Assembly (NCBI GenBank): GCA_964403155.1 | Contig: CAYOEG010000003.1 | Location: 21,400 to 85,399, forward strand | Source: an uncultured Candidatus Saccharibacteria bacterium | GTDB lineage: Bacteria > Patescibacteriota > Dojkabacteria > SC72 | Reading direction: 5' to 3' | Length of the DNA stretch: 64,000 nucleotides | Shown here: in pieces, positions 34,102 to 58,141 of the stretch | How the letters are laid out: the number at the start of each line of letters is the position of its first letter | Position numbering within the stretch: the first letter of the stretch is position 1 | Notes under the pieces: generated by a model | Database searches by the model: none | What the model was told of the DNA's origin: nothing | Seen by the model: the letters and a program-made list of their open reading frames with translations, nothing else | Translations under genes and position numbers: made by a program

Positions 34102-34229
34102 GAATTCATTTTAAAGAATTTTCTATCACCCCATTCCGCTTGTTTTCCAACATTCCATTGACTTATTGGTCTGATATATCCAACTACTCTGGAATAGACT
34201 TCACACCTTTGTCTTGTAACTTTTTTCAT
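34089..34229 (-). CDS. 46-aa ORF encoding the glycyl-radical C-terminal segment of class III RNR (split from nrdD, or a frameshift)
   Basis: The translation MKKVTRQRCEVYSRVVGYIRPISQWNVGKQAEWGDRKFFKMNSCGC matches the NrdD C-terminal consensus R-V-x-G-Y...N-x-G-K-Q-x-E...R (E. coli RRVCGYLG..FNAGKQEEVKRRVKH). It is too short for the ORF track, and its stop overlaps the nrdG start. Confidence 0.5.
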   Translation of the reverse strand: MKKVTRQRCEVYSRVVGYIRPISQWNVGKQAEWGDRKFFKMNSCGC

Positions 34230-34254
34230 AACTAGGACAGTAATAATTTATATA

Positions 34255-36318
34255 TTAAAATTTCTCATTGAATGGCATCCCATCTTGATAGCCAAGCTCC
34301 GCATCACACTTAGGACAATATTTATGCTCCCCAGCGATATACCCATGCTTAGGACACACACTAAAGGTAGGTGTCAGAGAAAAATATGGCAATTTATAGT
34401 TCTCTGCAACCTTCTTCACAAGGTTTTTTACACTCTCAGCGGAGGATATCTTTTCCCCAACATACAAATGCATCACAGTTCCACCTGTATATCTACATTG
34501 GAATTCATCTTGTAAGTCTAGAGCCTCAAAAATATCTTCAGTGTAATTAACAGGTATTTGGCTACTGTTGGTGTAGTAGGGAACAGAACCTGGTCTCTCT
34601 GCAATATCAGCAGCGGTTATTATATCCGGGAACTTCTTCTTATCTGCCTTTGCAAATTTGTATGTAGCTCCCTCCCCGGGGGAAGCTTCTAAGTTGAATA
34701 ATTGGTTTGTTTCTGATTGATAACTCTTCAACTTTTCTCTCATATGATCCATTATCTCTAGTGCAAATTCTCTTCCCTCCTTGGAAGTTATACCTTTTCC
34801 CTTATCTTTAAAGAAATTCATCATAGATTCATTCATTCCTAGAATACCAATAGTATTAAAATGGTTCTTGTAATATTCTCCAAAACGTTTTTTGATATTA
34901 CCTAAATAGAATTTTGAGTATGGATATAGCCCTTTATCAGTGTATTTCTCAATAAATGCTCGTTTGATCATCAGGCTTTCCTTCGCTAAGTCCATTATAT
35001 GATCCAAACGTTTCAAATAATCATGCTTGTTTGTACTAAGATACCCGATTTTTGGCAGATTAATTGTTACTACTCCGAGGCTTCCTGTTAATGGATTTGC
35101 TCCAAAAAGGCCACCGCCTCGCTTTCTTAGCTCTCGATTATCAAGTCTTAATCTGCAACACATACTTCTAGCATCGTCTGGGTTCATATCAGAATTAACG
35201 AAATTCGAGAAGTATGGAATACCGTATTTCCCTGTCATATTCCATACGGGTTTGTAATCCGAATTATCCCAATCAAAGTTCTTTGTAATGTTGTAAGTCG
35301 GGATTGGGAATGAAAAAAGTCTTCCTTGCGAATCTCCTTCCATCATTACCTCGCAGAATGCTTTGTTAAACATTGCCATTTCTTTTGTGAACTCTTTGTA
35401 TTTTTCTTTCTGTACCTTTCCTCCAATAATGATATTCTGTTCTGCAAGTTCTCCTGAAGGAATTAAATCCATGGTTATATTTGTAAAAGGTGTTTGACAT
35501 CCAACTCTTGTCGGTACATTCATGTTGTACAAGAATTCTTGCATTTTTTGTTTAACTTGCTTGTATGACAAATTGTCATATCTAATGAATGGGGCTAAAT
35601 ATGTATCAAAGCTTGAGAATGCTTGTGCTCCTGCAGCTTCATGTTGAAGAGTATAGAAGAAGTTAACACATTGGCCTAAAGCAGCCCCCAAATGTTTCGC
35701 GGGCGCAGAAGATATTTTCCCTGGGACCCCCGTAAAACCTTTCAAAAGCAAATCCTCTAAACTCCAGCCACAACAATATACCGCCAACATACCTAAATCA
35801 TGAATATGGAAATCTTTATCTATATTCGCATTAGAAATCTCTTTGGGATATATACTGTGTAACCAGTAATTTGATTGAACAGTAGTGGAGATATAGTTGT
35901 TTAATCCTTGCCATGAGTATGCCATATTACTGTTCTCATTTACCTGCCAATCAAGTTGATCAATATAACCTCTAACAAGTGTATCTGCATCTATTAAAGA
36001 TTTTATATTCATCACCTGATTCTTCAAATCAACAAACATTCCAAATGCAATGGATGTTTTCCCATGTCCCTCATCAATCAATACCTGTTTTACTACATCT
36101 GCGATTTCTTCTGTCTTAACATACTTTCGTTTGGAGTATTTTTGCACAAGCATATCTACTACTATTGTAGCCATTTCTTTAGCTCTTTTTCTATCACTTC
36201 CACCAACACTCTGGGCAGCTTTGAATATGCCGGTTGCTATTCTTTCTTTTTCAAATTTAACAATTCTTCCATCTCTCTTTCTGACCTGGAACGGGACTAG
36301 CTTTTTCTGGGCAGCCAT
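34255..36318 (-). CDS. nrdD: Anaerobic ribonucleoside-triphosphate reductase (class III), lacking the terminal glycyl-radical loop
   Basis: N-terminal ATP-cone (VRKRDGRIVKFEKERI), catalytic core (CCRLRLD...GGGLFGANPLTGSLGVVTINLPKIGY) and a C-terminal Zn-ribbon (CPKHGY...CPKCD). It ends 25 nt before the small ORF. Confidence 0.9.
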   Translation of the reverse strand: MAAQKKLVPFQVRKRDGRIVKFEKERIATGIFKAAQSVGGSDRKRAKEMATIVVDMLVQKYSKRKYVKTEEIADVVKQVLIDEGHGKTSIAFGMFVDLKNQVMNIKSLIDADTLVRGYIDQLDWQVNENSNMAYSWQGLNNYISTTVQSNYWLHSIYPKEISNANIDKDFHIHDLGMLAVYCCGWSLEDLLLKGFTGVPGKISSAPAKHLGAALGQCVNFFYTLQHEAAGAQAFSSFDTYLAPFIRYDNLSYKQVKQKMQEFLYNMNVPTRVGCQTPFTNITMDLIPSGELAEQNIIIGGKVQKEKYKEFTKEMAMFNKAFCEVMMEGDSQGRLFSFPIPTYNITKNFDWDNSDYKPVWNMTGKYGIPYFSNFVNSDMNPDDARSMCCRLRLDNRELRKRGGGLFGANPLTGSLGVVTINLPKIGYLSTNKHDYLKRLDHIMDLAKESLMIKRAFIEKYTDKGLYPYSKFYLGNIKKRFGEYYKNHFNTIGILGMNESMMNFFKDKGKGITSKEGREFALEIMDHMREKLKSYQSETNQLFNLEASPGEGATYKFAKADKKKFPDIITAADIAERPGSVPYYTNSSQIPVNYTEDIFEALDLQDEFQCRYTGGTVMHLYVGEKISSAESVKNLVKKVAENYKLPYFSLTPTFSVCPKHGYIAGEHKYCPKCDAELGYQDGMPFNEKF

Positions 36319-36341
36319 TATTTGTAGTAGTAAAAATTAAA

Positions 36342-36788
36342 TTATTTTTCTAAATTATCAATTTCCTCTCTAATATCATTCAGATCTTTAAACTCTTTAT
36401 ATACAGAAGCAAAGCGAATGTATGCCAAAGGGTCCTTGGTCTTTAACCAAGCAAGAATCATTTTACCAATCTCTTTTGATGTAACTGGTTCTTCGCTATT
36501 ATTAACATATCTTTCTACACCTTCAGCAAAATCTTCAACCTCTTGAAGGCTAATAGTGTTTTCATTAATTGCCTTCTTTATTCCTTTAACTATCTTGCTC
36601 ACATCGAATGTTTCTAAAGAGCCATCTTTTTTTAATATTGAAATATCCATCTTTTCAATTCTCTCGTATGTAGTAAATCTCTTACCACATCTAAGGCACT
36701 GTCTTCTGCGTCTTGTAGAACTATCTTCGCGGTTGTCTCTTTTGTCTACAACCTTTGTTGTATCGCAAGCACAGAATGGACATCTCAT
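36342..36788 (-). CDS. nrdR: Transcriptional repressor NrdR
   Basis: MRCPFCACDTTKVVDKRDNREDSSTRRRRQCLRCGKRFTTYE is a Zn-ribbon, followed by an ATP-cone. The start was placed at MRCPFC; the track ORF runs 66 nt further upstream. Confidence 0.85.
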   Translation of the reverse strand: MRCPFCACDTTKVVDKRDNREDSSTRRRRQCLRCGKRFTTYERIEKMDISILKKDGSLETFDVSKIVKGIKKAINENTISLQEVEDFAEGVERYVNNSEEPVTSKEIGKMILAWLKTKDPLAYIRFASVYKEFKDLNDIREEIDNLEK

Positions 36789-36796
36789 ATATTTTA

Positions 36797-36828
36797 CACA
36801 CAACATATTGTATGTATGTCCAACATAC
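36797..36828 (-). promoter_or_regulatory. Two adjacent palindromes upstream of nrdR; candidate NrdR boxes
   Basis: ACAAcATaTTGT at 36799-36810 is a near-perfect palindrome. GTATGT-cca-ACATAC at 36814-36828 is a perfect 6-3-6 inverted repeat. Both lie 10-40 nt upstream of the nrdR start, and both resemble the NrdR box acaCwAtATaTwGtgt. Confidence 0.35.
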
Positions 36829-36979
36829 CCCCAATCAGTAGTATGGTCAAGCAACCGATAGTGTGAAAGTCTATAGTATGTTGTTAGAAAAAGAGAAGTG
36901 ATTGTAAAAGAATATTACAGGATTTGACTATGAACTATCCCTTGTGTACCATATGTAATTAAGTTGAGTTCCACAACAG

Positions 36980-47316: not shown

Positions 47317-50300
47317 ATGTCTGTATTTCGCTTAAAAGTATTCGCTGCATTAGGAGGATTTCTTTTTCTATTACTTTCTTCTACAGAGATTTTAGGATAT
47401 GTATGCAGCAGTCTTCGCACATGCAATGGAGGACCAACATGTACTATCAGTTCAACAAGGGCATATTGCTCGAAAGAAGCATCGGATAGCCCTATTTGTA
47501 ATTGCCCTGATACTACACAATACATACATTGCTTAGAAGGTGCATATAGCTTTAGCAATTGTTGTCCATATAACAATCTATACATTGATAATATGGGCAG
47601 TGGTTATTGTACAAGATCAATAGATGCAACATATCCTAACGGTGGAACTTGTGAGTGTTGTACTCAAATCAACTGTGATTGTACACCCAAATGCCCAACG
47701 GGTTCGTATTTTACAAACACAGGGGCATACTGCTACGCAGGCAAATCAAGTTGCTCAGAATCTAACGAATGTTCAGAATGTACAGACTATGGTGCAGCGT
47801 GTTACTATCCAGAAACAAACACATCTTTCGTCCAATCAAATGGTTCTACAGCTGGTCCAACTAGCATAACTATGACAGTAGATGGTACTGCATATACTCT
47901 TTCTACCGATCCTAATAACCCTACTGTTATCAAACTACCTCAATGTTCTTCTCCGACTGTCCAATTATCTGTCCCTGCATTTACAGCACCAACAACCTCA
48001 AGAGGAGCTAATTACTATTTCCAAGCAGATAACTATGGTGTAGATGGTCAGTGGCAAGGATGGGTATCATGCGCTGGTACTGCAGGAGAAGATTTTTGTA
48101 CTGGGATGCCAAATTCAAATAGAACCCAAACCCTTGTTCCATACTCTTTAACAATAAATCAAGTATTCAAAGAGGGGGCAGAAGGTAAAATCTCTGCACA
48201 ATATGCTACAACTAATAAATGTGACGATAACTTTAAATATTCTGTTGCAAGAGTTGGTTACTATATAGTCGAGACAGTAAAACCAACTGTTAATCCAACA
48301 TCCGTAAATATAACTGTCGATGGAAAGACATACAGTCTCTCCTCTTCTGCGTCTACGCCTACAACTATAAAACTTCCATCTTTAGGATCTTCTGATGTAC
48401 AAGTATCTGTACCAACCTTTACAGCTTCTACAAGTTCTACAGGCGCCAACTATTATTTTAAAACTGATAATTATGGCTTAAATGGAGAATGGACGGGTGG
48501 AACTGCATGTCAAGGTATCGCAGGAGAAGATTTTTGTCTTGGACCTAACGCGAACAATACACAAACCTTTGATCCATACACCAAAACAGTAGCTCAAGTA
48601 CTTAAAGAAGGCGCAAAAGGTAAAATAACCGTTCAATATGCAGCTACAAACAAATGTACCACATCTTGGGAATACTCAAGCGCATTTACAGGATACTATC
48701 TTGTAAACAAAAAACCCGTACCAAACACAAACATCTTTCCAGATATAGCAACAGACATAACTCCCAAAGGATGTGCAAGCCTTACATACACAGGATTAGA
48801 TATTAACAACCCTCTGCATGTAGTAATAAATGCTACTGATGCCGATGGGAATGGTGATATACAAGCTTCTACCATATGGTTTACCAAAGATGATACGATA
48901 CCTACTACTGGTACAATCACAGGTACTTATTCTGGTTCTTCAAATCAAGACCTAGGGATAATGATTAAAAAGAATGGTACTACTTGGTCCAATCCATATA
49001 TATATGTAACCAATACATCTCCTTTTACATTCGCAATAATCACAAATGGATATGTAACTGTAAACGGAAGCAACATAGCAAGAATATATGATGTATCTGT
49101 AATACAGGACTCTACAGACGTTACATTTGATTACAAAATAGAGTTCTTACAAAGTGCTCAAAATCTCTCTGGTATGTACAATGTATATGGAGGAGCATTA
49201 GACTCATTCATGATCAACGGTAATAGTTTAGATCAGAGTTACTTTACATCTCTAACAGACTGGGGGATAGATCTTGTAAACCCAGTGGCTAATGACATAA
49301 CCCAAGAGATATATGATGCAACTAGAACAAACATCACATGGTCTGTATCAGACACAATCAGTGGGATAGATAGAACAGTAATTAACGCATACAGAACAGG
49401 AGGATTAGTCACAGACAATGTCACCCTTTACTTACCCACCGCATATACAACAAGCAAGGGAATTGTGACCTCTCAATCGTTACCACCAGCAAGTGATATT
49501 GGTAAATACGCAGGAACAAACGCCTGGGTATTTACAACTTCAACAGGAGAAAAAGATAGATTAAGCATTGGAAACAATGAAAGTGGAAGCATTGCAATCT
49601 ACGCCACAACATATGATAAAGCATGTAACACTGCATCTACAAACGAAGAACTTGATCTAAATCCATGGTTTGCAACAAGAGGAGGAAATGTCTATTCGCA
49701 AGGCAATATATCCACCGATGCTAAAGATGTCTCCTCTGTAACATCTCTAGATAATGTGTTTAGTTCAAAAGCAGGGATGACTAAAGAAAAACTAGATCTA
49801 GGGACAGAATTGCTTTCTACTGGAGATTTGAACATATCGAACTTAATACATTCAACCGCAGGGGCTATAAGAGCACTGATCACATATGATATGAATAATA
49901 GTAAGAATTATTGGTTTGGAGCTCTATCTAGCGAATTTGAGAAATACAAGCTAAACTCAACTGCCTTTGTTCCAACAACAACCTCTGTCTCTGCTGATTG
50001 CATGGGAACAGGGAGCTGCTATTATATTTCACTCTCAGCAGAAGCAGATATTAATATACCATCGGGATATATCTGTGATAGACCAACCCTTATAATTTCA
50101 AACAGGGATATATACCTAGAACCAAATGTAACAAATGGCGCAGGGCTATCAGGCTGTATCTTCCTCGCCAAAAACAATATATATATCGATGATGCCAGCT
50201 ATCTTTCAGCTACACAAATAAAATATGATTACCTTGAAGGCTTCTTTATAGCTGATAACCAGATAGTATTTCCTTTAGTTGACCCGGCAAGAACAAGAAG

Positions 50301-50517
50301 AGATGGAGTAGAAATATTTGGTGGATTAGTTGCATTCGGATCAAACATATCAGACAATAGCAAGGCAATATCAATAAACAGAAATTTAAGATTATACAAT
50401 CAGACAAACCCAACACTTGTTGTAACATATGATAATAGATATTCAAACATATCTAAGATTTTCTTTGGACAACAAGCTTCAATATACAAACAAGAGTTAG
50501 GATTCAAATCTTACTAA
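47317..50517 (+). CDS. Giant Cys-rich secreted/anchored surface protein, paralog B (1066 aa, two R domains)
   Basis: Same architecture as paralog A (42504-45323), with two tandem R domains of about 150 aa (SVPAFTAPTTSRGANYYFQADNYGVD... and SVPTFTASTSSTGANYYFKTDNYGLN...). The C-terminal body is about 75-100% identical to A. Confidence 0.5.
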   Translation: MSVFRLKVFAALGGFLFLLLSSTEILGYVCSSLRTCNGGPTCTISSTRAYCSKEASDSPICNCPDTTQYIHCLEGAYSFSNCCPYNNLYIDNMGSGYCTRSIDATYPNGGTCECCTQINCDCTPKCPTGSYFTNTGAYCYAGKSSCSESNECSECTDYGAACYYPETNTSFVQSNGSTAGPTSITMTVDGTAYTLSTDPNNPTVIKLPQCSSPTVQLSVPAFTAPTTSRGANYYFQADNYGVDGQWQGWVSCAGTAGEDFCTGMPNSNRTQTLVPYSLTINQVFKEGAEGKISAQYATTNKCDDNFKYSVARVGYYIVETVKPTVNPTSVNITVDGKTYSLSSSASTPTTIKLPSLGSSDVQVSVPTFTASTSSTGANYYFKTDNYGLNGEWTGGTACQGIAGEDFCLGPNANNTQTFDPYTKTVAQVLKEGAKGKITVQYAATNKCTTSWEYSSAFTGYYLVNKKPVPNTNIFPDIATDITPKGCASLTYTGLDINNPLHVVINATDADGNGDIQASTIWFTKDDTIPTTGTITGTYSGSSNQDLGIMIKKNGTTWSNPYIYVTNTSPFTFAIITNGYVTVNGSNIARIYDVSVIQDSTDVTFDYKIEFLQSAQNLSGMYNVYGGALDSFMINGNSLDQSYFTSLTDWGIDLVNPVANDITQEIYDATRTNITWSVSDTISGIDRTVINAYRTGGLVTDNVTLYLPTAYTTSKGIVTSQSLPPASDIGKYAGTNAWVFTTSTGEKDRLSIGNNESGSIAIYATTYDKACNTASTNEELDLNPWFATRGGNVYSQGNISTDAKDVSSVTSLDNVFSSKAGMTKEKLDLGTELLSTGDLNISNLIHSTAGAIRALITYDMNNSKNYWFGALSSEFEKYKLNSTAFVPTTTSVSADCMGTGSCYYISLSAEADINIPSGYICDRPTLIISNRDIYLEPNVTNGAGLSGCIFLAKNNIYIDDASYLSATQIKYDYLEGFFIADNQIVFPLVDPARTRRDGVEIFGGLVAFGSNISDNSKAISINRNLRLYNQTNPTLVVTYDNRYSNISKIFFGQQASIYKQELGFKSY
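49252..49445 (+). repeat. Second copy of the near-identical tract (partner of 44052-44245)
   Basis: See the first-copy entry; the two copies are offset by exactly 5200 bp. Confidence 0.6.
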
Positions 50518-50537
50518 ATTTATATATAATATTAAGT

Positions 50538-51500
50538 ATGTTAAAGAAAAAATACTCTGCACAAGCTTTGGCTATTGCGATGGTAGTTTTGGTAGTTTCA
50601 TCTATTCTTGCTATTTCCATCTATTCTCGTATATCAAAAGATAAGACTCTCTCACTAGATGAAAGAGCTTCCGCAGAGGCTCTCGAAGTCTCTGACCTGA
50701 TTCTTAACTACCTCACAGATGCTTCAATTAACGATGTGATCGAGGCAGCCGAAGAAGCGTCTGAGACACAAACTATAGAAACAGGCATCAGCCTAACAGA
50801 AAATGCTGCTTCATCACAAATATCTTCCTTGTTGGAGGCAATTGGTATTAATGCTGGACTAGAATCATTAGATATATGTCCACTGTCTGTAGCTGGTAAT
50901 TCGTATGTACTTTCGTTGACAGAGGGAGATTTAGATACATATTTTGAGATAAGACCTGGACAGATGATGGCATTGCCACTTAAAGGAATGGCATTGGGTG
51001 ATGATTGCAGCACAGTCCTGAGGGCTGCAATTAGGGGAGACAGTACAACGGGATTCACACTTACAAAAGTATATGGTTCGGGATATGTAAATGATTTGGC
51101 AACATCATACAAACCATACGATGAATCAGACGTCGCCCATTATTGTTTCTCTTCTGGAACAGGTTGCAATAACTCAAATTTCCTAGATAGTAGCAGTGAT
51201 GGTGTAAACTGGATCTATTTTTCAGATGATGGAACCGAACAAATAGACTTAGATCTAAAAGCTACATCTGGAGGATATCAATTGGATGAGGTAAAAATAA
51301 CAGCAATTGGAGGCACAGTTGGTATTGCTTATCAAATTAACAACCCAGAAAGCTGTACACAAGACCTCCAGATGATAAATGTACAAGCTGCTGCAAACTG
51401 TAGCGGCTCATATAGAGGGAAATCTGTTCTCATACCAAAAAAGCAATGGGAAAGCCCGATATTCAACTATACAATTTTTAACGGAGAGGGTTCACTCTAA
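50538..51500 (+). CDS. Hypothetical signal-anchored protein downstream of paralog B
   Basis: MLKKKYSAQALAIAMVVLVVSSILAISIYSRISKD is a basic N-terminus followed by a long hydrophobic helix. The remainder is Ser/Thr/Gly-rich and extracytoplasmic. Confidence 0.4.
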   Translation: MLKKKYSAQALAIAMVVLVVSSILAISIYSRISKDKTLSLDERASAEALEVSDLILNYLTDASINDVIEAAEEASETQTIETGISLTENAASSQISSLLEAIGINAGLESLDICPLSVAGNSYVLSLTEGDLDTYFEIRPGQMMALPLKGMALGDDCSTVLRAAIRGDSTTGFTLTKVYGSGYVNDLATSYKPYDESDVAHYCFSSGTGCNNSNFLDSSSDGVNWIYFSDDGTEQIDLDLKATSGGYQLDEVKITAIGGTVGIAYQINNPESCTQDLQMINVQAAANCSGSYRGKSVLIPKKQWESPIFNYTIFNGEGSL

Positions 51501-51510
51501 AAACAGCTAA

Positions 51511-53208
51511 ATGAGTAATAGATATTCCATAAAACTAGGGGGAGAGTCCGGACAAGGTATTAACACCCTCGGTTTACTTCTGAGTAAATCCCTTAAATCA
51601 GTCGGATACAACATATTTGCATATAGAGAATATCCCTCTTTAATTAAAGGAGGTGTAGCATCATATCAAATAGATATCTCAAATGAAGCTATCAACTCAT
51701 CTTCCAAAATCTGTAATCTGCTTGCCATCTTGGACCCAGACTCCATAACAGAATATTTGGAATCTTTGAATTTGAATGGGATATTAATTTACGATGACGA
51801 AATTGAATTTACCGAAGAACAAAAATCCATTATTCAGAATAAAAAAATCTCAACAATATATTTAGATACACAAACTATAGCTGTAAGTAACGGTGGAAAT
51901 CCCATTATGGCAAATACTGTCATGATAAGCTTCATATGGAAAATCCTAGGTCTATCGCAGCAATCACTTGAAGCTATCGTTAAAGAGATTTTCATAGAAA
52001 AAGGAGAAGAAATTGTTGAAAAAAATTTAAAATGTATAGCTGCAGGCTTTAATTCAGAAATATATAAAGAAGAATACAACCAAGGTAGCTATATACCAAT
52101 TCCAGATGACAAAAACAAAGATAATAAAATACTAACAGGAAATGATGCCATAACATTGGGGGCTATTGCCTGTGGAGTACGTGCATACTATGGTTACCCC
52201 ATGACTCCAGCAACCTCCATTTTTAAATATCTTGGGAATACATACAAAGAAACTGGTATCTTAATTAAACAGGCAGAAAGTGAAATCACAGCAGTACAAA
52301 TGGTAATAGGTAGCATGGCAATGGGAACAAGAGCATTTACTGCAACATCAGGCGGGGGATTCGATTTAATGCAAGAAACAATCTCTTGTGCGGGAATATC
52401 GGAAGTACCACTAGTAATAGTGCTCGCACAAAGAATAGGGGCAGGAACAGGTGTTCCTACATGGACAGGATCAAGTGATATACAAACCGCAGTAAAGGCT
52501 GGGCATGGGGAATTTCCAAAGGCAGTACTTTCTGTAAGTGATATTACTTCTGGATTCACATTGATTCAAAAAGCATTCAATATAGCAGAAAAATATCAAA
52601 TACCTGTAATAGTCCTTACAGAGAAACAAATTGCAGAATCACTATTCTGTGTATCATCACTGCCAAAATCTTTAGATATAGAAAGAGGAGTTGAAAAAAA
52701 AGCAAAGAGGTATGAGATAACGGATGATGGGATATCTTCAAGATGGATACCGGAAGAATCCAAAAAACCATATTTAAACACTAGTGATGAACATGATGAG
52801 GAAGGAACTAGTACAGAAAATGCATCCATGATCTTACAAATGTCCACAAAACGCATGAAGAAATTAGAATCATTAAAACAAGAAATCCCAGAACCAATAC
52901 TGTATGGGAACATCTCCTCTAATACCATATTAGTTGGGAGTGGAAGTACAAAGAATGCAATATTAGACGCGATATCCTCAGGAAAAGATATCGCATATCT
53001 TCACTATGAATACATCTATCCATTGAAAACAGACCTTCTTATGAATTTCGCCTCTCAAAACAAACGCATTCTACTAATTGAGAACAATCAAACAGGAGAA
53101 CTGGGCAAAATAATTACTGAAACTTGTGGTTACCAGTTTAAAGAAAAAATATTAAAAGCAGATGGAAGACCATTCTTCTTAGAAGATATATTAAATATAG
53201 AAATATAA
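51511..53208 (+). CDS. korA: 2-oxoacid:ferredoxin oxidoreductase alpha subunit with an N-terminal gamma domain
   Basis: The gamma-like N-terminus IKLGGESGQGINTLG...EYPSLIKGGVASYQIDIS is followed by the alpha domain ILTGNDAITLGAIACGVRAYYGYPMTPATSI. Confidence 0.75.
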   Translation: MSNRYSIKLGGESGQGINTLGLLLSKSLKSVGYNIFAYREYPSLIKGGVASYQIDISNEAINSSSKICNLLAILDPDSITEYLESLNLNGILIYDDEIEFTEEQKSIIQNKKISTIYLDTQTIAVSNGGNPIMANTVMISFIWKILGLSQQSLEAIVKEIFIEKGEEIVEKNLKCIAAGFNSEIYKEEYNQGSYIPIPDDKNKDNKILTGNDAITLGAIACGVRAYYGYPMTPATSIFKYLGNTYKETGILIKQAESEITAVQMVIGSMAMGTRAFTATSGGGFDLMQETISCAGISEVPLVIVLAQRIGAGTGVPTWTGSSDIQTAVKAGHGEFPKAVLSVSDITSGFTLIQKAFNIAEKYQIPVIVLTEKQIAESLFCVSSLPKSLDIERGVEKKAKRYEITDDGISSRWIPEESKKPYLNTSDEHDEEGTSTENASMILQMSTKRMKKLESLKQEIPEPILYGNISSNTILVGSGSTKNAILDAISSGKDIAYLHYEYIYPLKTDLLMNFASQNKRILLIENNQTGELGKIITETCGYQFKEKILKADGRPFFLEDILNIEI

Positions 53209-54062
53209 TGATAGACATAAAAGAGTACAACAAAAATATAAAACCAACATGGTGCCCAGGCTGTGGTAATTTTGCAATACATATGGCCTTAAAAAATGCA
53301 CTCAGCCAATTGGATATTAAACCTTCACAAACATACATCACCTTTGATATTGGATGCAATGGGAATGGGGCAGACAAAATTAACACGTATGCCTTCAAAG
53401 GACTTCATGGAAGATCAATTCCACTTGCGGCAGGAGTTCACCTAGCAAATAGAAAATTTACTGTGATTTCGGATATGGGAGATGGCGCATGCTTCCATGA
53501 GGGGTTAGATCATCTTATACATGCAATAAAATCAAACTACGACATCACAATCTTGATTCATAACAATCAGAATTTCGCGTTAACTACTGGACAAGCAACA
53601 ATTACAACTAATGAAGATAAACCCATGTATGGTCTCCCGGATAGTAAACCGGAGCGAAGTTTAACTGCTTCAGAAATAATATTAAGTGCAGACCCATCAT
53701 TCTATGCAAGAGGTTACTCTGGTGACTTACCACAATTAGTAGAAATCATTAAGGCAGGTATACAAAACCATGGTTGTAGTGTAATAGAAATATTCCAAGT
53801 ATGCCCGACATACAATGAAGAATGCACACCTGAATGGTACTCACAAAGAATTAAGAAATTAGAAACTCCTGCAACTAATCTCGAGAATGCACACCAGATT
53901 AGTCAAATTACTGATCAGATAGTAAATACTGGTATAATATATCGTAACACAACGCTTAAGATATTCTATGAACTCTTAGAGAATAGAAAAGACATTTCTA
54001 CAGAATTGGTTGAAGAAGTAAAACCATATGACGTAGAGAAACTATTTAATCAATTTAAATAA
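53208..54062 (+). CDS. korB: 2-oxoacid:ferredoxin oxidoreductase beta subunit (TPP-binding)
   Basis: TWCPGCGNFAI and the GDGA TPP motif (SDMGDGACFHEG). Confidence 0.8.
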   Translation: MIDIKEYNKNIKPTWCPGCGNFAIHMALKNALSQLDIKPSQTYITFDIGCNGNGADKINTYAFKGLHGRSIPLAAGVHLANRKFTVISDMGDGACFHEGLDHLIHAIKSNYDITILIHNNQNFALTTGQATITTNEDKPMYGLPDSKPERSLTASEIILSADPSFYARGYSGDLPQLVEIIKAGIQNHGCSVIEIFQVCPTYNEECTPEWYSQRIKKLETPATNLENAHQISQITDQIVNTGIIYRNTTLKIFYELLENRKDISTELVEEVKPYDVEKLFNQFK

Positions 54063-56170
54063 TGATAGACAAAATATTTTCTCCGAAATCAATCGCTATC
54101 GTCGGAGCCTCTCAGGATTCGGAAAAGATAGCTTCTGTAATATTAAAAAATGTGACCGAAGGAGGATTCAATGGTAAAGTATATCCAATCAATCCCAAGT
54201 ATGAGGAAATACAAGGAAGGCAAGCATATGCTGACATTTTGCAAATTAAAGATCACGTCGACATGGTTTGTATTGCAATACCATACCAATTCGTAGAATC
54301 TGTTGTCGATCAGTGTGTAACAAAAAAAGTACAATCTGTTGTCATAATTACTGCTGGCTTTAAAGAAACTGGAGAGGAAGGAAAGATAATAGAAGAAAGA
54401 ATTTCTCAGAAACTTAAAAATGCAAACATTCGACTTCTTGGACCTAACTGTTTAGGATTCATAAATAATAAAGCAAAAATAAATCTGTCATTTGCAAGAC
54501 AGAACCCAGGAGAGGGTAATATCGCATTTGTCTCCCAATCCGGAGCTTTCTGTACTGCTATCCTTGATATGGCTTGTGAAAACGGAATCGGTTTCTCACA
54601 TGTGATATCTTTAGGAAACAAAGCTGATATCCATGAGAACGAATTAATGCAAACCCTGCTTTTTGACAATAATGTTAAAGCACTAGCACTATACTTAGAA
54701 GAATTTGCAGATGGAAAAGAATTTGTAACACTAGCACAAAAAGCTAAAAAACCCGTACTACTCATTGCACCTGGAAGTTCGGAACAAGCAAAAATCGCAA
54801 TTTCTTCCCACACAGGAGCACTTGCATCTTCATATGACACAATTATAGCTGCAGTGAAGAAAGGAAATGTTATCCTTGCTGAAAATTCCGAAGATCTCTT
54901 TAAACTAATTACACTTATAGCTCAGAATGCAATTCCAAAAGGAAAGAAAATCGCGATCATAACAAATGCTGGAGGTCCTGGGATCATAGCAACTGATTCT
55001 GTAGAAAAAGAAGGGCTTGAGCTAACTGAAATAGGAGAGAAAACAAAACAAAAGCTTCTAAAGGTACTCCCTAGAGAATCAAACATCAAGAATCCTATCG
55101 ATATATTAGGAGACGCAAAAAGTGATAGATACGAACTCGCAATACAAGCAGTTTTAGAAGAAAAAGATGTGGATTCTATCTTCACTATCCTCACACCCCA
55201 ACTCATAACTGATATAGAAGGCACTGCACAAAAAATTATTGAAATGAGTAAAACTACAGCAAAACCAATATACTCCTGTTTCTTGGGGGGAAAAGATGTT
55301 AGATCTGGATTCAGGATTTTAGACAAAGAAAACAGACCCTCCTTCAATGATATTCAAGAAGGAATACATTTGATTGCAAAATTAGCGAGATTTGAAGAGA
55401 ACAAGGAAAGAACCAAGATAACAGATTGTAATGATTACAAAACCAGAGCTAAACATAAAAAGGAGGTACTCTCATGCTGTGATGCAGAAACTATCAGAGT
55501 ATTACCTGAACAACTTGCAATCTCCCTTCTTCAGGAATTTAAAATTGATATCCCCAATGAACTTGTTACAGGAAGTCTTGGAAATGCAATTGATTTTGCA
55601 GCATTGAATTTTCCTGTTGCAATAAAAGCTACAGCAAAGGATTTAGCACATAAAACTGATTTTAAGGGAATATATCTTGATATTCGAACTATCTCTGAAT
55701 TCGAAGAAAAATTTATAGAGCTTAAAGAAAATATTTCAAAAATTACAGGGAATCCATCTCCAGAGATTCTAGTCCAACAGATGATAGATGGAAAAGTGGA
55801 ATTCTTCATTGGTGCTAATAGAGAAGGTGATTCAATGATATATGAAAAAGAGGGTAGAGGATTCGGTCATCTTTTAGCAATAGGGCAGGGAGGAATATAT
55901 ACAGAGGTCTTTAAAGACATCAAGCACATATTAGTACCCGAGTATGATCAAAAGATAATGGATATATTAGATGAAACCAAAGTATCGATGATTATAAATG
56001 GGTATAGAGGCAAACCAGCGTTAGCAAAGGAGAAATTAATAGAATTAATAGTTAAGCTAGAAAAACTGTTGATCAATTATCCAGAGATCATCTCAATGGA
56101 TATAAATCCAGTGATAATTACTGAGAAAAAGGCTATTGTTGTAGATGTTAAATTCTACGTAGCAAAGTAA
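54062..56170 (+). CDS. Acetyl-CoA synthetase (ADP-forming), fused alpha-beta
   Basis: N-terminal CoA-binding domain KSIAIVGASQDSEKIASVILKNV, succinyl-CoA-synthetase-like ligase domains, and a C-terminal ATP-grasp domain; 702 aa. Confidence 0.75.
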   Translation: MIDKIFSPKSIAIVGASQDSEKIASVILKNVTEGGFNGKVYPINPKYEEIQGRQAYADILQIKDHVDMVCIAIPYQFVESVVDQCVTKKVQSVVIITAGFKETGEEGKIIEERISQKLKNANIRLLGPNCLGFINNKAKINLSFARQNPGEGNIAFVSQSGAFCTAILDMACENGIGFSHVISLGNKADIHENELMQTLLFDNNVKALALYLEEFADGKEFVTLAQKAKKPVLLIAPGSSEQAKIAISSHTGALASSYDTIIAAVKKGNVILAENSEDLFKLITLIAQNAIPKGKKIAIITNAGGPGIIATDSVEKEGLELTEIGEKTKQKLLKVLPRESNIKNPIDILGDAKSDRYELAIQAVLEEKDVDSIFTILTPQLITDIEGTAQKIIEMSKTTAKPIYSCFLGGKDVRSGFRILDKENRPSFNDIQEGIHLIAKLARFEENKERTKITDCNDYKTRAKHKKEVLSCCDAETIRVLPEQLAISLLQEFKIDIPNELVTGSLGNAIDFAALNFPVAIKATAKDLAHKTDFKGIYLDIRTISEFEEKFIELKENISKITGNPSPEILVQQMIDGKVEFFIGANREGDSMIYEKEGRGFGHLLAIGQGGIYTEVFKDIKHILVPEYDQKIMDILDETKVSMIINGYRGKPALAKEKLIELIVKLEKLLINYPEIISMDINPVIITEKKAIVVDVKFYVAK

Positions 56171-56219: not shown

Positions 56220-56657
56220 TTAATATCCAGTATGAGAATTTTCCCCGTATTCGTTGTACAACTTCTTGCAGGCATCTTTCTCTATCTGAATCTCCATATA
56301 TCCATCTACATTCCCCGTCTCTTCCATGAAGCCAATTTCCTGTGCATCTGAATAGTCACATCCATAATATACCTTTGATATCTTAGCCCACATTATTGCA
56401 TGGCGGCACATTGGGCATGGTTTACCAGTTACGTATAACTCACAACCAGACAAATCAAAAGCCTTGAGTTTTTTTGAAGCCTGTTGTATTGCTCTAATTT
56501 CAGCATGATTTGTAGCATCTTTTCTTCTTACAACCTCATTATGTGCCTTCGATATAATTTTTCCATCTTTAATAATCACACATCCAAATGGACCACCATG
56601 ACCCTTCCTCACACCATATTGCGCCTCATCCAAAGCTATCTTCATATACTCATTCAT
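56220..56657 (-). CDS. CDA-fold nucleotide/base deaminase (GuaD/TadA-like)
   Basis: Zn ligands HAE and PCPMC. GGPFGCVIIKDGKII resembles B. subtilis GuaD GGPFGAVIVKDG. The start overlaps the upstream stop by 1 nt. Confidence 0.7.
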   Translation of the reverse strand: MNEYMKIALDEAQYGVRKGHGGPFGCVIIKDGKIISKAHNEVVRRKDATNHAEIRAIQQASKKLKAFDLSGCELYVTGKPCPMCRHAIMWAKISKVYYGCDYSDAQEIGFMEETGNVDGYMEIQIEKDACKKLYNEYGENSHTGY

Positions 56658-57523
56658 TAGTACTGCTTCTTAAAATTAATGTCGTCTACAAGCATTTTTC
56701 TACCTGTCCTTCCAAGATCTTTCTCATATTGCCTAGCATACTCTCTGTAGTCAACAACCTTCTTTGTTCTCTCTTTTATACTTCTCTCTCCAATCATACC
56801 GGGACCATTTATGCATCCGCCATCACAGGTAAGAATATCTAAAAATCTGTAATTCTTGTACATTCCGTCTTTAAATTCAGACAATACCCTCAAGATATTC
56901 TCGACACCCTCCATTACTAAGATCTCTTTTTCTTTTAGTATGTTTTTGTAATGGAGTGTAGAAGATAGACCACCAGAAATTGGATAGATTTTGGTATAGT
57001 CATTATAAAATCTCTCAAAAGTAATACAATATTTTGAGTCTGTAACCTTTTCGGGGATATTTTTCTCTACAAAGAGAGATTGCAATTCCTTAAATGTTAA
57101 AGCTTCATCAACACTACCTAATTCTTGTGCTTCCATCTTTTTTGTAATACAAGGACCAACAAATACAATTTTGTATTCAGGATAGTATTTCTTGCAAATG
57201 AGAGCCATCGCCCCCATAGGAGAAAGCACAGGAACCAGATTTGATATTAGATTAGGGAATTTCGTACGGATCATGTTAACAAGAGTAGGGCATGGTGATG
57301 ATATCCAGGTTTTCTTTTCTCCCTTTTCGATACTTTCTTTCAGAATTTCATAATACGCCAGATTCACCATCTTCGCACCAAACGTAAGCTCAACAATTTC
57401 GTCAAAGCCTAACATTCGAAGACGATATATAATTTCGGGATAGTCAAATTCCGCAACAAAAGAAGGTGCTAACATACATAGATATTTTTCTTCATCTTTG
57501 AATTCCATATTAAAAATATACAT
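56657..57523 (-). CDS. Minimal [FeFe]-hydrogenase H-cluster-domain-like protein (288 aa) with a non-canonical L1 motif
   Basis: L1-like WISSPCPTLV (against canonical TSCCPxW), L2 VGPCITKKMEA (against MPCxxKxxE) and L3 LDILTCDGGCINGPG (against ExMACxGGCxxGGGQP). There are no N-terminal ferredoxin-like cluster domains. Confidence 0.55.
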   Translation of the reverse strand: MYIFNMEFKDEEKYLCMLAPSFVAEFDYPEIIYRLRMLGFDEIVELTFGAKMVNLAYYEILKESIEKGEKKTWISSPCPTLVNMIRTKFPNLISNLVPVLSPMGAMALICKKYYPEYKIVFVGPCITKKMEAQELGSVDEALTFKELQSLFVEKNIPEKVTDSKYCITFERFYNDYTKIYPISGGLSSTLHYKNILKEKEILVMEGVENILRVLSEFKDGMYKNYRFLDILTCDGGCINGPGMIGERSIKERTKKVVDYREYARQYEKDLGRTGRKMLVDDINFKKQY

Positions 57524-57622
57524 GACGCTTAGCGTCTACGCAAATCATTAGTACAACAATAACTATATGGGAATTTTACTGTTTTTTAGAAACTATATGC
57601 CCAAATGTGATACAATTTCCTC

Positions 57623-58141
57623 ATGGTACTGCTCAGCATTGATACTATTAAGAAACTTTTGTTAGATAAAAAACTTCAACTTATTGGGGTATATTCGTTG
57701 GCATTTTTAGTTCCATTTATATTCCGACAGCCACAGCTATTGATAGGGAGTATTGTGAACTTCATCCTGATATTTTCTATCTCACGGTTTGAAACTAAGA
57801 AAATTATACCTCTAATATTTATACCCTCTATCGCATCACTCTTAAGTGGGACACTTTTTGGTACTTTTACCCCTTATCTCCTATATATTATCCCTTTTAT
57901 AGCTACCGCAAATTTGATATTCATTCTTTCATTTAAATATATAAAGATTAAATACCTGAGAGTTATATTTTCTGCGTTAATTAAGGCTTCTTTTCTCTTC
58001 TCTTGTGCATATATACTCGTAAATACGCTCCATATTCCTCAAATATTTCTAACAACAATGGGAGAAATACAATTCTTAACAGCAATAATAGGGGCTTTGC
58101 TGTTTGAAGTAATGTTTTCAAAATCTGTTACGGTAAAGTAA
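57623..58141 (+). CDS. Hypothetical polytopic membrane protein (possibly a small-transporter S-component type)
   Basis: Five to six hydrophobic helices in 172 aa. An extended -10, TGATACAAT, sits 8 nt upstream of the ATG, so the mRNA is possibly leaderless. Confidence 0.3.
   Translation: MVLLSIDTIKKLLLDKKLQLIGVYSLAFLVPFIFRQPQLLIGSIVNFILIFSISRFETKKIIPLIFIPSIASLLSGTLFGTFTPYLLYIIPFIATANLIFILSFKYIKIKYLRVIFSALIKASFLFSCAYILVNTLHIPQIFLTTMGEIQFLTAIIGALLFEVMFSKSVTVK

What the first reader, a model, noticed from the sequence alone, without database searches (positions are those of the whole stretch)
56657..57523. Minimal [FeFe]-hydrogenase-like H-domain protein with an altered active-site motif, coupled to a deaminase and next to the Kor/Acd fermentation operon
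- A 288-aa ORF carries the three H-cluster-binding motifs in the canonical order and spacing (L1 WISSPCP, L2 VGPCITKKMEA, L3 TCDGGCINGPG) but no ferredoxin-like accessory-cluster domains.
- In L1 the first Cys of TSCCP, the proton-relay Cys of catalytic hydrogenases, appears replaced by Pro (SSPCP).
- In L2 the Met of MPC is Gly.
- Such substitutions are typical of sensory or non-catalytic hydrogenase homologs (HydS, Nar1/NARF-like).
- It overlaps the start of a CDA-fold deaminase by 1 nt, so the two form an operon.
- It sits immediately downstream of korAB-acd, which produces reduced ferredoxin.
- No HydE/F/G maturase is in the window.
Basis: partly seen in the sequence, partly recalled or inferred. 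Interest (0 to 1): 0.6.

Follow-up and report, generated by a model that had tools for sequence, protein, structure and literature searches.

The report
Ultraminimal [FeFe] hydrogenase of a CPR bacterium
This gene encodes a stripped-down, catalytic-domain-only [FeFe] hydrogenase of the "ultraminimal" type, so far described only in tiny DPANN archaea but here found in a tiny CPR (Dojkabacteria) bacterium, where it most likely vents surplus fermentation electrons as hydrogen gas.

Summary
A minus-strand ORF (56657-57523; real start M6 at 57508, 283 aa) is a full [FeFe]-hydrogenase H-domain and nothing else (Pfam Fe_hyd_lg_C, E 5e-44; AF2 pLDDT 94; best PDB folds are all [FeFe] hydrogenases). All four H-cluster cysteines and the [2Fe]-anchoring residues are kept. 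The proton-relay Cys299 is Pro, Met353 is Gly, Met497 is Leu, and the rest of the canonical proton path is missing too.

These are family traits. In 153 H-domain-only relatives the 299 position is never Cys (Pro in 84). The family is large (>2,300 hits). It spans CPR bacteria and DPANN archaea, and groups with the archaeal proteins to the exclusion of multidomain sensory (group C-type) hydrogenases in 100 of 100 bootstraps. It matches the "group E ultraminimal" hydrogenases of Greening et al. 2024, one of which makes H2 in vitro.

The korAB-acd genes are convergent, not co-transcribed, but the adjacency is conserved. In distant lineages korAB lies directly upstream on the same strand. The deaminase is guanine-deaminase-like and is absent from this position in several Dojkabacteria-like loci, so the link is probably incidental. 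An unannotated 5-TM protein is a more widely conserved neighbour. No hydEFG is in the window.

Verdict: a new bacterial member of a recently described kind.

The parts
56657..57508 (-). hyd: 283-aa H-domain-only ('ultraminimal', group-E-like) [FeFe] hydrogenase. The longest ORF extends to 57523, but that start is not conserved.
   Evidence: Pfam Fe_hyd_lg_C E 4.8e-44. CpI alignment. AF2 pLDDT 94.1 and Foldseek top hits all [FeFe] hydrogenases, TMq 0.74-0.79. Start codon analysis.
57287..57307 (-). L1 motif WISSPCP. Pro77 replaces the proton-relay Cys299 of CpI. Cys78 corresponds to cluster ligand Cys300.
   Evidence: The Pro/Val/Ala/Asn-but-never-Cys pattern in 153 relatives is.
57128..57160 (-). 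L2 motif VGPCITKKMEA. Gly123 replaces Met353. Cys125 corresponds to Cys355 and Lys128 to Lys358.
56798..56830 (-). L3 motif TCDGGCINGPG. Cys233 corresponds to Cys499 and Cys237 to Cys503. Leu231, just upstream of the motif, replaces Met497.
56220..56657 (-). Guanine/guanosine-deaminase-like CDA-fold deaminase. Its start overlaps the hyd stop by 1 nt (TAATG). Probably co-transcribed but not functionally tied to hyd.
   Evidence: Pfam dCMP_cyt_deam_1. Best PDB match is B. subtilis guanine deaminase 1tiy/1wkq, E 3e-28. Present after hyd in many Dojkabacteria-like loci but absent in several, and absent from all distant loci.
51511..54062 (+). korA (gamma-alpha fusion, 565 aa) and korB (284 aa): a two-subunit 2-oxoacid:ferredoxin (acceptor) oxidoreductase, the likely source of the electrons.
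   Evidence: Pfam POR/POR_N and TPP_enzyme_C/PFO_beta_C. TIGR03710 at 511 bits, above its cutoff. Conserved next to hyd in Dojkabacteria. Directly upstream and co-directional in L084, L087, L096, L098; adjacent in archaeal L019 and in L091.
54062..56170 (+). acd: ADP-forming (NDP-forming) acetate/acyl-CoA ligase. This is the ATP-yielding step that needs ferredoxin to be re-oxidised.
   Evidence: Pfam CoA_binding, Succ_CoA_lig, ATP-grasp_5. TIGR02717. Convergent with hyd-deaminase and syntenic in nearly all Dojkabacteria-like loci that extend far enough.
57623..58141 (+). tm172: unannotated ~5-TM membrane protein, divergently transcribed from hyd. It is a conserved partner gene of unknown role.
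   Evidence: No Pfam, NCBIfam or PDB match. One family member gives a weak ECF S-component hit, E 0.005. Adjacent to hyd in most Dojkabacteria loci. Tandem and overlapping with hyd in L020, L076, L080, L090 and L104.
57509..57622 (.). Divergent intergenic region between hyd and tm172. It holds a TATATTT element (57514-57520) just upstream of the hyd start, conserved in most homologous loci shown.
   Evidence: Upstream sequences of 12 loci. A promoter-like site for tm172 lies at 57587-57616 (consensus match only).

Best explanation
The gene encodes the only subunit of an 'ultraminimal' (group-E-type) [FeFe] hydrogenase in a Candidatus Dojkabacteria (CPR/Patescibacteria) bacterium.

Shown here:
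- It is a complete H-domain.
- It has the four cysteines for the [4Fe-4S] subcluster and its bridge to the [2Fe] subcluster.
- It has the invariant Lys, Ser and Pro residues that hold the [2Fe] subcluster's cyanide ligands.
- It has no accessory cluster domain and no output domain.

Inferred:
- The neighbouring two-subunit 2-oxoacid:ferredoxin oxidoreductase (KorAB) oxidises pyruvate or another 2-oxoacid to acyl-CoA and reduces ferredoxin.
- Acd converts the acyl-CoA to acid plus ATP.
- The hydrogenase takes the electrons at its exposed [4Fe-4S] subcluster and releases them as H2. The donor is ferredoxin, or conceivably the OFOR itself. This keeps the fermentation running in a genome with almost no other redox sinks.
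- Protons cannot reach the active site by the canonical Cys299/Glu279/Ser319/Glu282/Arg286 route, because all five residues are replaced. A different route is needed. It may involve the near-invariant Tyr at the Glu279 position plus water next to the small Pro/Ala/Val residue at 299. Turnover is probably slower than in group A enzymes.

Unresolved: how the [2Fe] subcluster is made without hydEFG nearby.
For: Fold and active site:
- Pfam E 4.8e-44. CpI alignment.
- AF2 pLDDT 94.1 and PDB fold hits exclusively [FeFe] hydrogenases.
- In 153 H-domain-only relatives, C300, C355, S323 and K358 are invariant. C499, C503, P324, A230 and P231 are invariant apart from alignment gaps or a single exception. 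K358, S323 and P324 have no known role other than holding the [2Fe] subcluster (established knowledge of CpI and HydA1).

Family placement:
- More than 2,300 homologs. Named members come from Dojkabacteria/WS6, Parcubacteria and Patescibacteria, and from Pacearchaeota, Nanoarchaeota and Iainarchaeota.
- In a bootstrapped NJ tree, the window protein and the Pacearchaeota protein exclude all multidomain sensory-type proteins in 100 of 100 replicates. The ultraminimal clade is monophyletic in 75 of 100.

Published biochemistry (PMC11216029):
- Group E enzymes average 286 aa and are H-domain only.
- One of them (Fm) binds the H-cluster, evolves H2 and is biased toward H+ reduction.
- OFOR genes are often adjacent to the hydrogenase genes in DPANN genomes.

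Context found here:
- acd-korB-korA is next to hyd in nearly every Dojkabacteria-like locus with enough flanking DNA.
- korA-korB is directly upstream on the same strand in distant loci L084, L087, L096 and L098.
- porAB lies divergent from an acyl-CoA synthetase-hyd operon in a Pacearchaeota genome, L019.
Against: - No HydE, HydF or HydG in the 64-kb window. I could not scan whole Dojkabacteria genomes, so whether an H-cluster is ever assembled in vivo is unknown.
- No ferredoxin-type CxxCxxCxxxC motif anywhere in the window.
- Pro at the Cys299 position has no protonatable group. In group A enzymes, non-acidic replacements of this Cys nearly abolish activity (general knowledge; see also PMC10407848). 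I do not know which residue the active Fm enzyme carries at this position.
- Nearest multidomain relatives are sensory-type.
- In this window korAB-acd is convergent with hyd, not co-transcribed.
- Membership in published group E rests on proxies.
Confidence: 0.6

Rival explanations
1. It is a real H-cluster enzyme that works mainly in the uptake direction. It would oxidise environmental or host-derived H2 to reduce ferredoxin. The adjacent OFOR would then run reductively (acyl-CoA + CO2 -> 2-oxoacid) for anabolism.
For: Same structural evidence as the main explanation. [FeFe] hydrogenases and OFORs are both reversible (general knowledge). The closest characterised multidomain relative, TmHydS, prefers H2 oxidation (PMC11216029). 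Many source samples are H2-rich anoxic systems such as digesters, groundwater and sludge (contig names).
Against: The only characterised ultraminimal enzyme is biased toward H+ reduction. The conserved partner Acd is an ATP-yielding, acid-forming enzyme, which fits oxidative flux. Reducing ferredoxin with H2 is thermodynamically unfavourable without bifurcation, and no bifurcating subunits are present.
Confidence: 0.12
2. It is a low-turnover H2 sensor or regulator, like group C/D HydS proteins, which signals through a separate partner protein.
For: Loss of the whole canonical proton pathway, and the M353G and M497L changes, resemble groups C and D (PMC10407848). Nearest multidomain relatives carry PAS, histidine-kinase, sigma-54 or GGDEF output domains, and several have Pro at the 299 position.
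Against: No output domain, no PF04060 FeS domain and no N-terminal ferredoxin domain. No regulator is conserved next to it. The conserved neighbours are OFOR, Acd and a small membrane protein. It groups with the ultraminimal clade rather than the sensory proteins. A sensor makes little sense as the only hydrogenase-like gene of a minimal genome, and I could not check whether it is the only one.
Confidence: 0.12
3. It never receives a [2Fe] subcluster, because the organism lacks HydEFG. It would then work as a simple [4Fe-4S] protein: an electron carrier or acceptor for the OFOR, or a Nar1-like Fe-S assembly factor.
For: No maturase in the window. Most archaeal genomes with these enzymes also lack HydEFG (PMC11216029). 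No classical ferredoxin motif is in the window, so the OFOR needs some acceptor.
Against: Strict conservation of residues whose only known role is to bind the [2Fe] subcluster (K358, S323, P324, P231/S232), across CPR and DPANN members down to about 35% identity. This is hard to explain without that cofactor. The archaeal homolog readily accepts [2Fe]adt and becomes active. Nar1-type proteins carry an extra N-terminal cluster motif that is absent here (general knowledge; not tested).
Confidence: 0.12
4. The hydrogenase-like protein and the overlapping deaminase act together, for example as a redox-controlled or redox-assisted nucleobase deamination module.
For: A 1-nt stop/start overlap, conserved in many Dojkabacteria loci.
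Against: The deaminase is missing from this position in several Dojkabacteria-like loci and in all distant loci, while hyd keeps its other neighbours. Hydrolytic CDA-fold guanine deaminases need no redox partner (plus general knowledge). Gene overlaps are common in compact CPR genomes.
Confidence: 0.03

Closest known systems
Group E 'ultraminimal' [FeFe] hydrogenases of DPANN archaea (Greening et al. 2024, Cell; e.g. the Fm enzyme of Ca. Forterrea multitransposorum)
   Same: Size (283 aa here, against an average of 286). H-domain only, with a single [4Fe-4S] plus a [2Fe] site. Non-canonical proton-transfer residues. Frequent adjacency to 2-oxoacid:ferredoxin oxidoreductase genes. Host is an ultra-small, genome-reduced fermenter. 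No maturases nearby. Named Pacearchaeota, Nanoarchaeota and Iainarchaeota proteins are 42-49% identical to it and fall in the same clade.
   Different: The host is a bacterium (Dojkabacteria, CPR), whereas group E was described as an archaeal, monophyletic group. In my trees CPR and DPANN sequences interleave. The Dojkabacteria/Patescibacteria clade has Pro at the Cys299 position, while the archaeal members I could name have Ala, Val, Asn or Pro. It has a conserved 5-TM neighbour gene. I could not compare it directly with the published Fm and Na sequences.
Group C/D putative sensory [FeFe] hydrogenases (TmHydS, TamHydS)
   Same: Loss of Cys299 and of the canonical proton pathway, Gly at the Met353 position, and 35-43% identity over the H-domain. 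Pro at position 299 occurs in many sensor-fused relatives (PMC10407848).
   Different: No N-terminal ferredoxin domain, no C-terminal PF04060 cluster, and no PAS, kinase, sigma-54 or GGDEF output. Phylogenetically separate. The Group D-specific Glu252/Glu289 pathway was not examined.
Chlamydomonas reinhardtii HydA1 (group A, M1 type), the classical 'minimal' hydrogenase
   Same: H-domain only, takes electrons straight from ferredoxin, and disposes of fermentative or photosynthetic electrons as H2.
   Different: HydA1 is about 450 aa with long loop insertions. It keeps TSCCP, MPC, M497 and the full proton pathway. It matches the window protein only at E ~1e-8.
Nar1 / NARFL (eukaryotic cytosolic Fe-S assembly hydrogenase-like proteins)
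   Different: Nar1-type proteins are eukaryotic and larger. They have an N-terminal cluster motif and have lost the [2Fe]-binding residues (general knowledge). None appeared among the sequence or fold hits. The [2Fe] anchors are conserved here.

Membership tests
[FeFe] hydrogenase H-domain (Pfam PF02906 Fe_hyd_lg_C) | Significant full-length match to the H-domain profile | tested here: met
   E 4.8e-44, 151 bits against a cutoff of 22.1, profile positions 3-245 of 245.
[FeFe] hydrogenase H-domain (Pfam PF02906 Fe_hyd_lg_C) | Four cysteines ligating the [4Fe-4S] subcluster and bridging to [2Fe] (CpI C300, C355, C499, C503) | tested here: met
   C78, C125, C233 and C237 align to them. They are conserved in all 153 short relatives apart from alignment gaps.
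[FeFe] hydrogenase H-domain (Pfam PF02906 Fe_hyd_lg_C) | Residues anchoring the [2Fe] subcluster ligands (K358, S323/P324, P231/S232) | tested here: met
   K128, S101/P102 and P20/S21 are present and essentially invariant in the family.
[FeFe] hydrogenase H-domain (Pfam PF02906 Fe_hyd_lg_C) | H-domain three-dimensional fold | tested here: met
   AF2 pLDDT 94.1. The Foldseek top 50 PDB hits are all [FeFe] hydrogenases, TMq 0.74-0.79.
[FeFe] hydrogenase H-domain (Pfam PF02906 Fe_hyd_lg_C) | Actual H-cluster incorporation and H2 turnover | not testable with these tools
   Needs expression, [2Fe]adt or HydEFG maturation, FTIR and an activity assay.
Prototypical group A [FeFe] hydrogenases | TSCCP / MPC / M497 motifs and the C299-E279-S319-E282-R286 proton pathway | tested here: not met
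   Replaced by P77, Y57, V97, I60 and S64, with G123 and L231.
Group E 'ultraminimal' [FeFe] hydrogenases (Greening et al. 2024) | About 286-aa protein consisting of the H-domain alone, with no accessory FeS domains | tested here: met
   283 aa and a single Pfam domain. No CxxCxxCxxxC motif.
Group E 'ultraminimal' [FeFe] hydrogenases (Greening et al. 2024) | Phylogenetic placement with the DPANN ultraminimal enzymes, as sister to the sensory group C | tested here: inconclusive
   It clusters with named Pacearchaeota, Nanoarchaeota and Iainarchaeota H-domain-only proteins and excludes the sensor-fused proteins (100 of 100 bootstraps). Clade monophyly is 75 of 100.
Group E 'ultraminimal' [FeFe] hydrogenases (Greening et al. 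2024) | Archaeal (DPANN) host | tested here: not met
   The closest homologs are named Candidatus Dojkabacteria, candidate division WS6 or Patescibacteria. The window carries bacterial genes such as UvrB, NrdR and GreA-type neighbours.
Group C/D sensory [FeFe] hydrogenases | N-terminal ferredoxin domain, C-terminal extra FeS motif (PF04060), and a PAS or other signalling domain | tested here: not met
   None is present in the window protein. All are present in the long relatives.
Nar1/NARFL hydrogenase-like CIA proteins | Eukaryotic, with an N-terminal Cys cluster motif and loss of [2Fe]-binding residues | tested here: not met
   No N-terminal extension. The [2Fe] anchors are retained. No Nar1 hit appears in the PDB sequence or fold searches.

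The most novel reading that the evidence does not exclude
CPR bacteria and DPANN archaea share an exchangeable, maturase-independent hydrogenase module. The Pro-type ultraminimal enzyme would be a genuine H2 producer whose [2Fe] subcluster, or a precursor of it, is not made by HydEFG. Instead it would be acquired or assembled with the help of the conserved, unannotated 5-TM partner protein, which gives a weak ECF S-component-like hit. One possibility is uptake from the host or the surroundings. This would expose both a new H-cluster supply route and a new, Cys-independent proton-delivery solution (Tyr57 plus water next to Pro77).
Probability: 0.06. Interest if true: 0.85.

Novelty: new member of a known kind. 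Interest (0 to 1): 0.45.

Why it matters
- **Host range.** If the protein is active, the smallest known class of hydrogenase is not an archaeal peculiarity. It would be widespread in CPR bacteria: more than 2,300 relatives, with Dojkabacteria, Parcubacteria and other Patescibacteria among the named ones. CPR and DPANN sequences interleave in the tree, which suggests gene exchange between the two ultra-small radiations.
- **Physiology.** It would give Dojkabacteria, which are regarded as having extremely minimal metabolism (bioRxiv 10.1101/2019.12.18.881540), a concrete redox sink. That makes their 2-oxoacid-to-acid ATP-yielding fermentation workable, and makes them H2 sources for partners.
- **Enzymology.** A naturally conserved Pro at the proton-relay position, together with a near-invariant Tyr at the Glu279 position, is a ready-made test case for alternative proton pathways. 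The enzyme is also a 283-residue scaffold for engineering.
- **Maturation.** The missing maturases and the conserved membrane partner bear on the open question of how these organisms build the H-cluster.

Tried and rejected
- **Single-sequence AF2** gave an unusable model (pLDDT 31). I redid it with a 150-sequence alignment.
The published Fm and Na genomes could therefore not be fetched. The paper's supplementary sequences are not held.
- **The listing of cluster members** on 50%-identity representatives returned no taxon names. Names came from the profile search instead.
- **Exact look-up of the 100%-identical protein** found no contig on record.
- **tm172** has no Pfam hit even at E 10 and no PDB hit with a family profile. 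The only hint is one weak NCBIfam ECF-S hit. A 33%-identical homolog sits without any hydrogenase nearby, so the link is not universal.
- **Promoter and terminator scan** gave nothing above shuffles.
- **Literature searches** for CPR or Patescibacteria plus group E, ultraminimal or HydG found no paper describing these bacterial enzymes. The library is incomplete, so this is not proof of absence.
- **Rejected: Nar1-like identity.** The [2Fe] anchors are conserved and there is no N-terminal cluster.
- **Rejected: a functional hyd-deaminase unit.** The phyletic pattern argues against it.
- **Rejected: korAB-acd-hyd as a single operon in this window.** The genes are on opposite strands.
Full report
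**1. What is in the sequence**

The ORF is real but lies on the minus strand (56657..57523, 288 aa). In homologous loci the first ATG is replaced by other codons, or is followed by an in-frame stop. The ATG GAA TTT ("MEF") start is conserved in 11 of the 12 loci compared (L013 has ATG CCA TTT). The coding sequence is therefore 56657..57508, 283 aa. This matches the 283-aa database protein that is 100% identical.

Identity of the protein:
- Pfam finds one domain, Fe_hyd_lg_C, at E 4.8e-44. It covers the whole profile.
- NCBIfam's best hit is the C-terminal half of the monomeric [FeFe] hydrogenase model TIGR04105.
- An AlphaFold2 model built on a 150-sequence alignment is confident (pLDDT 94.1, pTM 0.91).
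- Its best PDB matches are exclusively [FeFe] hydrogenase catalytic domains: T. kivui HydA, CpI, CbA5H and TmHydABC, with TM-score 0.74-0.79 on the query.

**2. The active site**

I used the HMMER alignment to Clostridium pasteurianum CpI and a 259-sequence family alignment. The CpI alignment is ungapped across CpI 253-339, the block that holds positions E279 to P324.

| CpI residue | Role | Window residue |
|---|---|---|
| C300, C355, C499, C503 | cluster ligands | C78, C125, C233, C237 (kept) |
| K358, S323/P324, A230-P231-S232 | hold the [2Fe] subcluster | K128, S101/P102, A19-P20-S21 (kept) |
| C299 | proton relay | Pro77 |
| E279 | proton pathway | Tyr57 |
| S319 | proton pathway | Val97 |
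| E282 | proton pathway | Ile60 |
| R286 | proton pathway | Ser64 |
| M353 | near the [2Fe] subcluster | Gly123 |
| M497 | near the [2Fe] subcluster | Leu231 |

I confirmed the motif coordinates by hand on the sequence.

**3. These are family traits**

- A word-indexed search found 730 close homologs. The best 120 are 61-100% identical and mostly about 283 aa. Where named, they come from Candidatus Dojkabacteria or candidate division WS6. Of the 120, 119 show xSPCP, 118 show GPC and 108 show LxCxGGC under strict pattern matching. The remaining few failed the patterns and were not inspected individually.
- An exhaustive HMMER search of 50%-identity cluster representatives gave 2,716 hits. About 25 clusters are 260-310-aa H-domain-only proteins. 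Next come 550-1,000-aa proteins.
- Those long proteins have the architecture Fer4 + H-domain + PF04060 FeS, followed by PAS, histidine-kinase, sigma-54-activator, GGDEF or GAF domains. That is the sensory, group C-type architecture.
- Among 153 H-domain-only proteins, the position of C299 is never Cys. It is Pro in 84, Val in 28, Ala in 19, Asn in 12 and Thr in 6. The position of E279 is Tyr in 141 of 153. The cluster ligands and the [2Fe] anchors are essentially invariant.

**4. Relation to the published "ultraminimal" hydrogenases**

Greening et al. 2024 (PMC11216029) defined group E. Its features are:
- H-domain-only enzymes averaging 286 residues.
- Found in three DPANN phyla, and sister to sensory group C.
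- Different proton-transfer residues from the canonical enzymes.
- One member (Fm) binds a single [4Fe-4S] cluster and accepts synthetic [2Fe]adt. It shows H-cluster FTIR states, evolves H2, and is biased toward H+ reduction.
- Most host genomes lack HydEFG.
- OFOR genes are often adjacent.

A profile search with 21 non-Dojkabacteria short proteins returned 2,334 hits. Named members include Parcubacteria, "Patescibacteria group" and Dojkabacteria. They also include Candidatus Pacearchaeota, Nanoarchaeota and Iainarchaeota.

The window protein is 42-49% identical to those archaeal proteins and 42-56% identical to other CPR proteins.

Tree results:
- In an NJ tree of 259 sequences, 147 of the 153 proteins of 330 aa or fewer form one clade, with CPR and DPANN sequences interleaved.
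- In a 78-taxon bootstrap, that clade is recovered in 75 of 100 replicates.
- The Dojkabacteria/Patescibacteria "Pro" clade is recovered in 87 of 100.
- The smallest clade joining the window protein to the Pacearchaeota protein excludes all sensor-type proteins in 100 of 100.

I could not obtain the Fm and Na reference sequences, because no supplement is held. Formal membership in group E is therefore inferred from these proxies. No paper in the searchable library connects this class with CPR bacteria.

**5. Genomic context**

The flanking genes, in window order:

| Gene | Coordinates | Strand | Identity |
|---|---|---|---|
| korA | 51511-53208 | + | 2-oxoacid:acceptor oxidoreductase alpha; TIGR03710 above its cutoff |
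| korB | 53208-54062 | + | oxidoreductase beta subunit |
| acd | 54062-56170 | + | ADP-forming acyl-CoA ligase |
| deaminase | 56220-56657 | - | guanine-deaminase-like |
| hyd | 56657-57508 | - | the hydrogenase |
| tm172 | 57623-58141 | + | unannotated 5-TM protein |

So korAB-acd and hyd-deaminase are convergent, not one operon. I compared 104 related loci.

Findings on korAB and acd:
- Nearly every Dojkabacteria-like locus that extends far enough has acd-korB-korA convergent downstream of hyd. L062 is an exception, with no acd or korAB within 8 kb.
- Among the roughly 25 distant loci (43-55% identity), korA-korB lies directly upstream on the same strand as hyd in L084, L087 and L098.
- L096 shows korB in that same position, but the locus is cut off upstream of it.
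- korAB is convergent with hyd in L091.
- In a Pacearchaeota genome (L019), porAB is divergent from an overlapping AMP-forming acyl-CoA synthetase-hyd pair.
- The recurrence of OFOR next to hyd across domains and in different orientations is the best evidence for a functional link.

Findings on the deaminase:
- It overlaps the hyd stop by 1 nt. This is conserved in many Dojkabacteria loci.
- It is absent from this position in a 72-73%-identity subclade (L006, L007, L009, L032-L036, L077) and in several other Dojkabacteria-like loci (L010, L015, L037-L040, L042, L065, L067-L069, L071). It is also absent from all distant loci.
- It most resembles Bacillus subtilis guanine deaminase (E 3e-28).
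- I read it as purine salvage, co-transcribed by the accident of a compact genome.

**6. A more persistent neighbour: tm172**

- This 172-aa, 5-TM protein has no Pfam, NCBIfam or PDB match.
- It is divergent from hyd in most Dojkabacteria loci.
- It lies immediately next to hyd on the same strand in L020, L076, L080, L090 and L104, overlapping it in four of them and 8 nt away in L076. Hyd identity there is only 44-56%.
- One family member gives a weak hit to an ECF-transporter S-component model (E 0.005).
- A 33%-identical homolog has no hydrogenase nearby.
- Greening et al. mention an uncharacterised 4-6-TM "hyd6TM" protein next to archaeal group A enzymes. I could not test whether it is related.

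**7. Maturation and electron donor**

- The window has no HydE or HydG. The only radical-SAM ORF is NrdG, beside NrdD and NrdR.
- It has no HydF-like GTPase.
- It has no classical ferredoxin motif.
- Whole genomes could not be scanned with the tools left.

**8. Interpretation**

The most likely function is ferredoxin-linked (or OFOR-linked) H2 evolution. This would re-oxidise the electron carrier of the neighbouring 2-oxoacid oxidoreductase so that Acd can make ATP (confidence about 0.6).

- The fold, the cofactor ligands, the family placement and the conserved neighbourhood are shown here.
- Activity, direction, the proton route (possibly Tyr57 plus water beside Pro77) and cofactor biogenesis are inferred.
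- The rivals are H2 uptake, a sensor role, a [4Fe-4S]-only protein, and a hyd-deaminase unit. They are weighed in their own sections.

**9. Novelty and score**

The kind is known: ultraminimal group E, published in 2024. NCBI already labels the homologs as [quoted passage not shown]. Three things appear to be new relative to the literature I could search:
- The bacterial (CPR) host range and abundance.
- The fixed Pro at the proton-relay site in the Dojkabacteria/Patescibacteria clade.
- The conserved membrane partner.

I rate it a new member of a known kind, with interest 0.45.

Noticed in passing
window 57623-58141 (+); also L020:6448-7017, L076:7378-7956, L080:8839-9384, L090:8836-9420, L104:5439-6014: An unannotated ~170-200-aa, 5-TM protein family accompanies the ultraminimal hydrogenase gene. 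It is divergent in Dojkabacteria and tandem with hyd (overlapping in four of five loci) in other CPR lineages. It has invariant PQ..G..N, PS, G..F and MG..Q..T motifs. There is no Pfam or PDB match and only one weak ECF S-component hint. A 33%-identical homolog (P0423) has no hydrogenase nearby.
   Followed up: partly
window 57509-57523 and upstream regions of hyd in L001-L030: The annotated-length ORF start (ATG at 57523) is not conserved. Three loci have an in-frame stop there, so M6 (57508) is the start. A TATATTT element (window 57514-57520) sits a few bases upstream of the start codon in most of the 12 loci compared. It may be a -10 box giving a very short or absent leader. A 13-nt hairpin, GACGCTAAGCGTC (57524-57536), lies just upstream.
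   Followed up: partly
protein P0122: A 4,122-aa predicted protein has 14 separate Fe_hyd_lg_C-like stretches and was the second-best hit in the representative search. It could be a concatenated or misassembled gene model, or a giant multi-H-domain protein.
   Followed up: no
protein P0143, nested in the ultraminimal clade: A 352-aa protein combines an N-terminal 2x[4Fe-4S] ferredoxin domain with an ultraminimal-type H-domain. It may be an intermediate between the sensor-type and ultraminimal architectures, or a secondary fusion to its electron donor.
   Followed up: no
L021:5983-7864 (Iainarchaeota) and L019:5482-7846 (Pacearchaeota): In Iainarchaeota, hyd directly follows a TYW1-like radical-SAM wyosine gene. 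In Pacearchaeota, hyd overlaps the end of an AMP-forming acyl-CoA synthetase gene and is divergent from porAB. A 61-aa ferredoxin and TYW3 lie a few kb downstream.
   Followed up: no
window 33400-36854 (-): An NrdR - NrdD (anaerobic ribonucleotide reductase) - NrdG (radical-SAM activase) cluster, consistent with a strictly anaerobic lifestyle. NrdG is the only radical-SAM gene in the window.
   Followed up: partly
window 47317-51500 (+): A 1,066-aa Cys-rich secreted repeat protein is followed by a 320-aa protein with a pilin-like N-terminal hydrophobic segment and no Pfam match. The 320-aa gene stays syntenic, immediately upstream of korA, in Dojkabacteria loci.
   Followed up: no
window 1-64000: No CxxCxxCxxxC ferredoxin motif occurs in any frame of the 64-kb window. 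The physiological electron carrier between the two-subunit OFOR and the hydrogenase is therefore not encoded nearby.
   Followed up: partly
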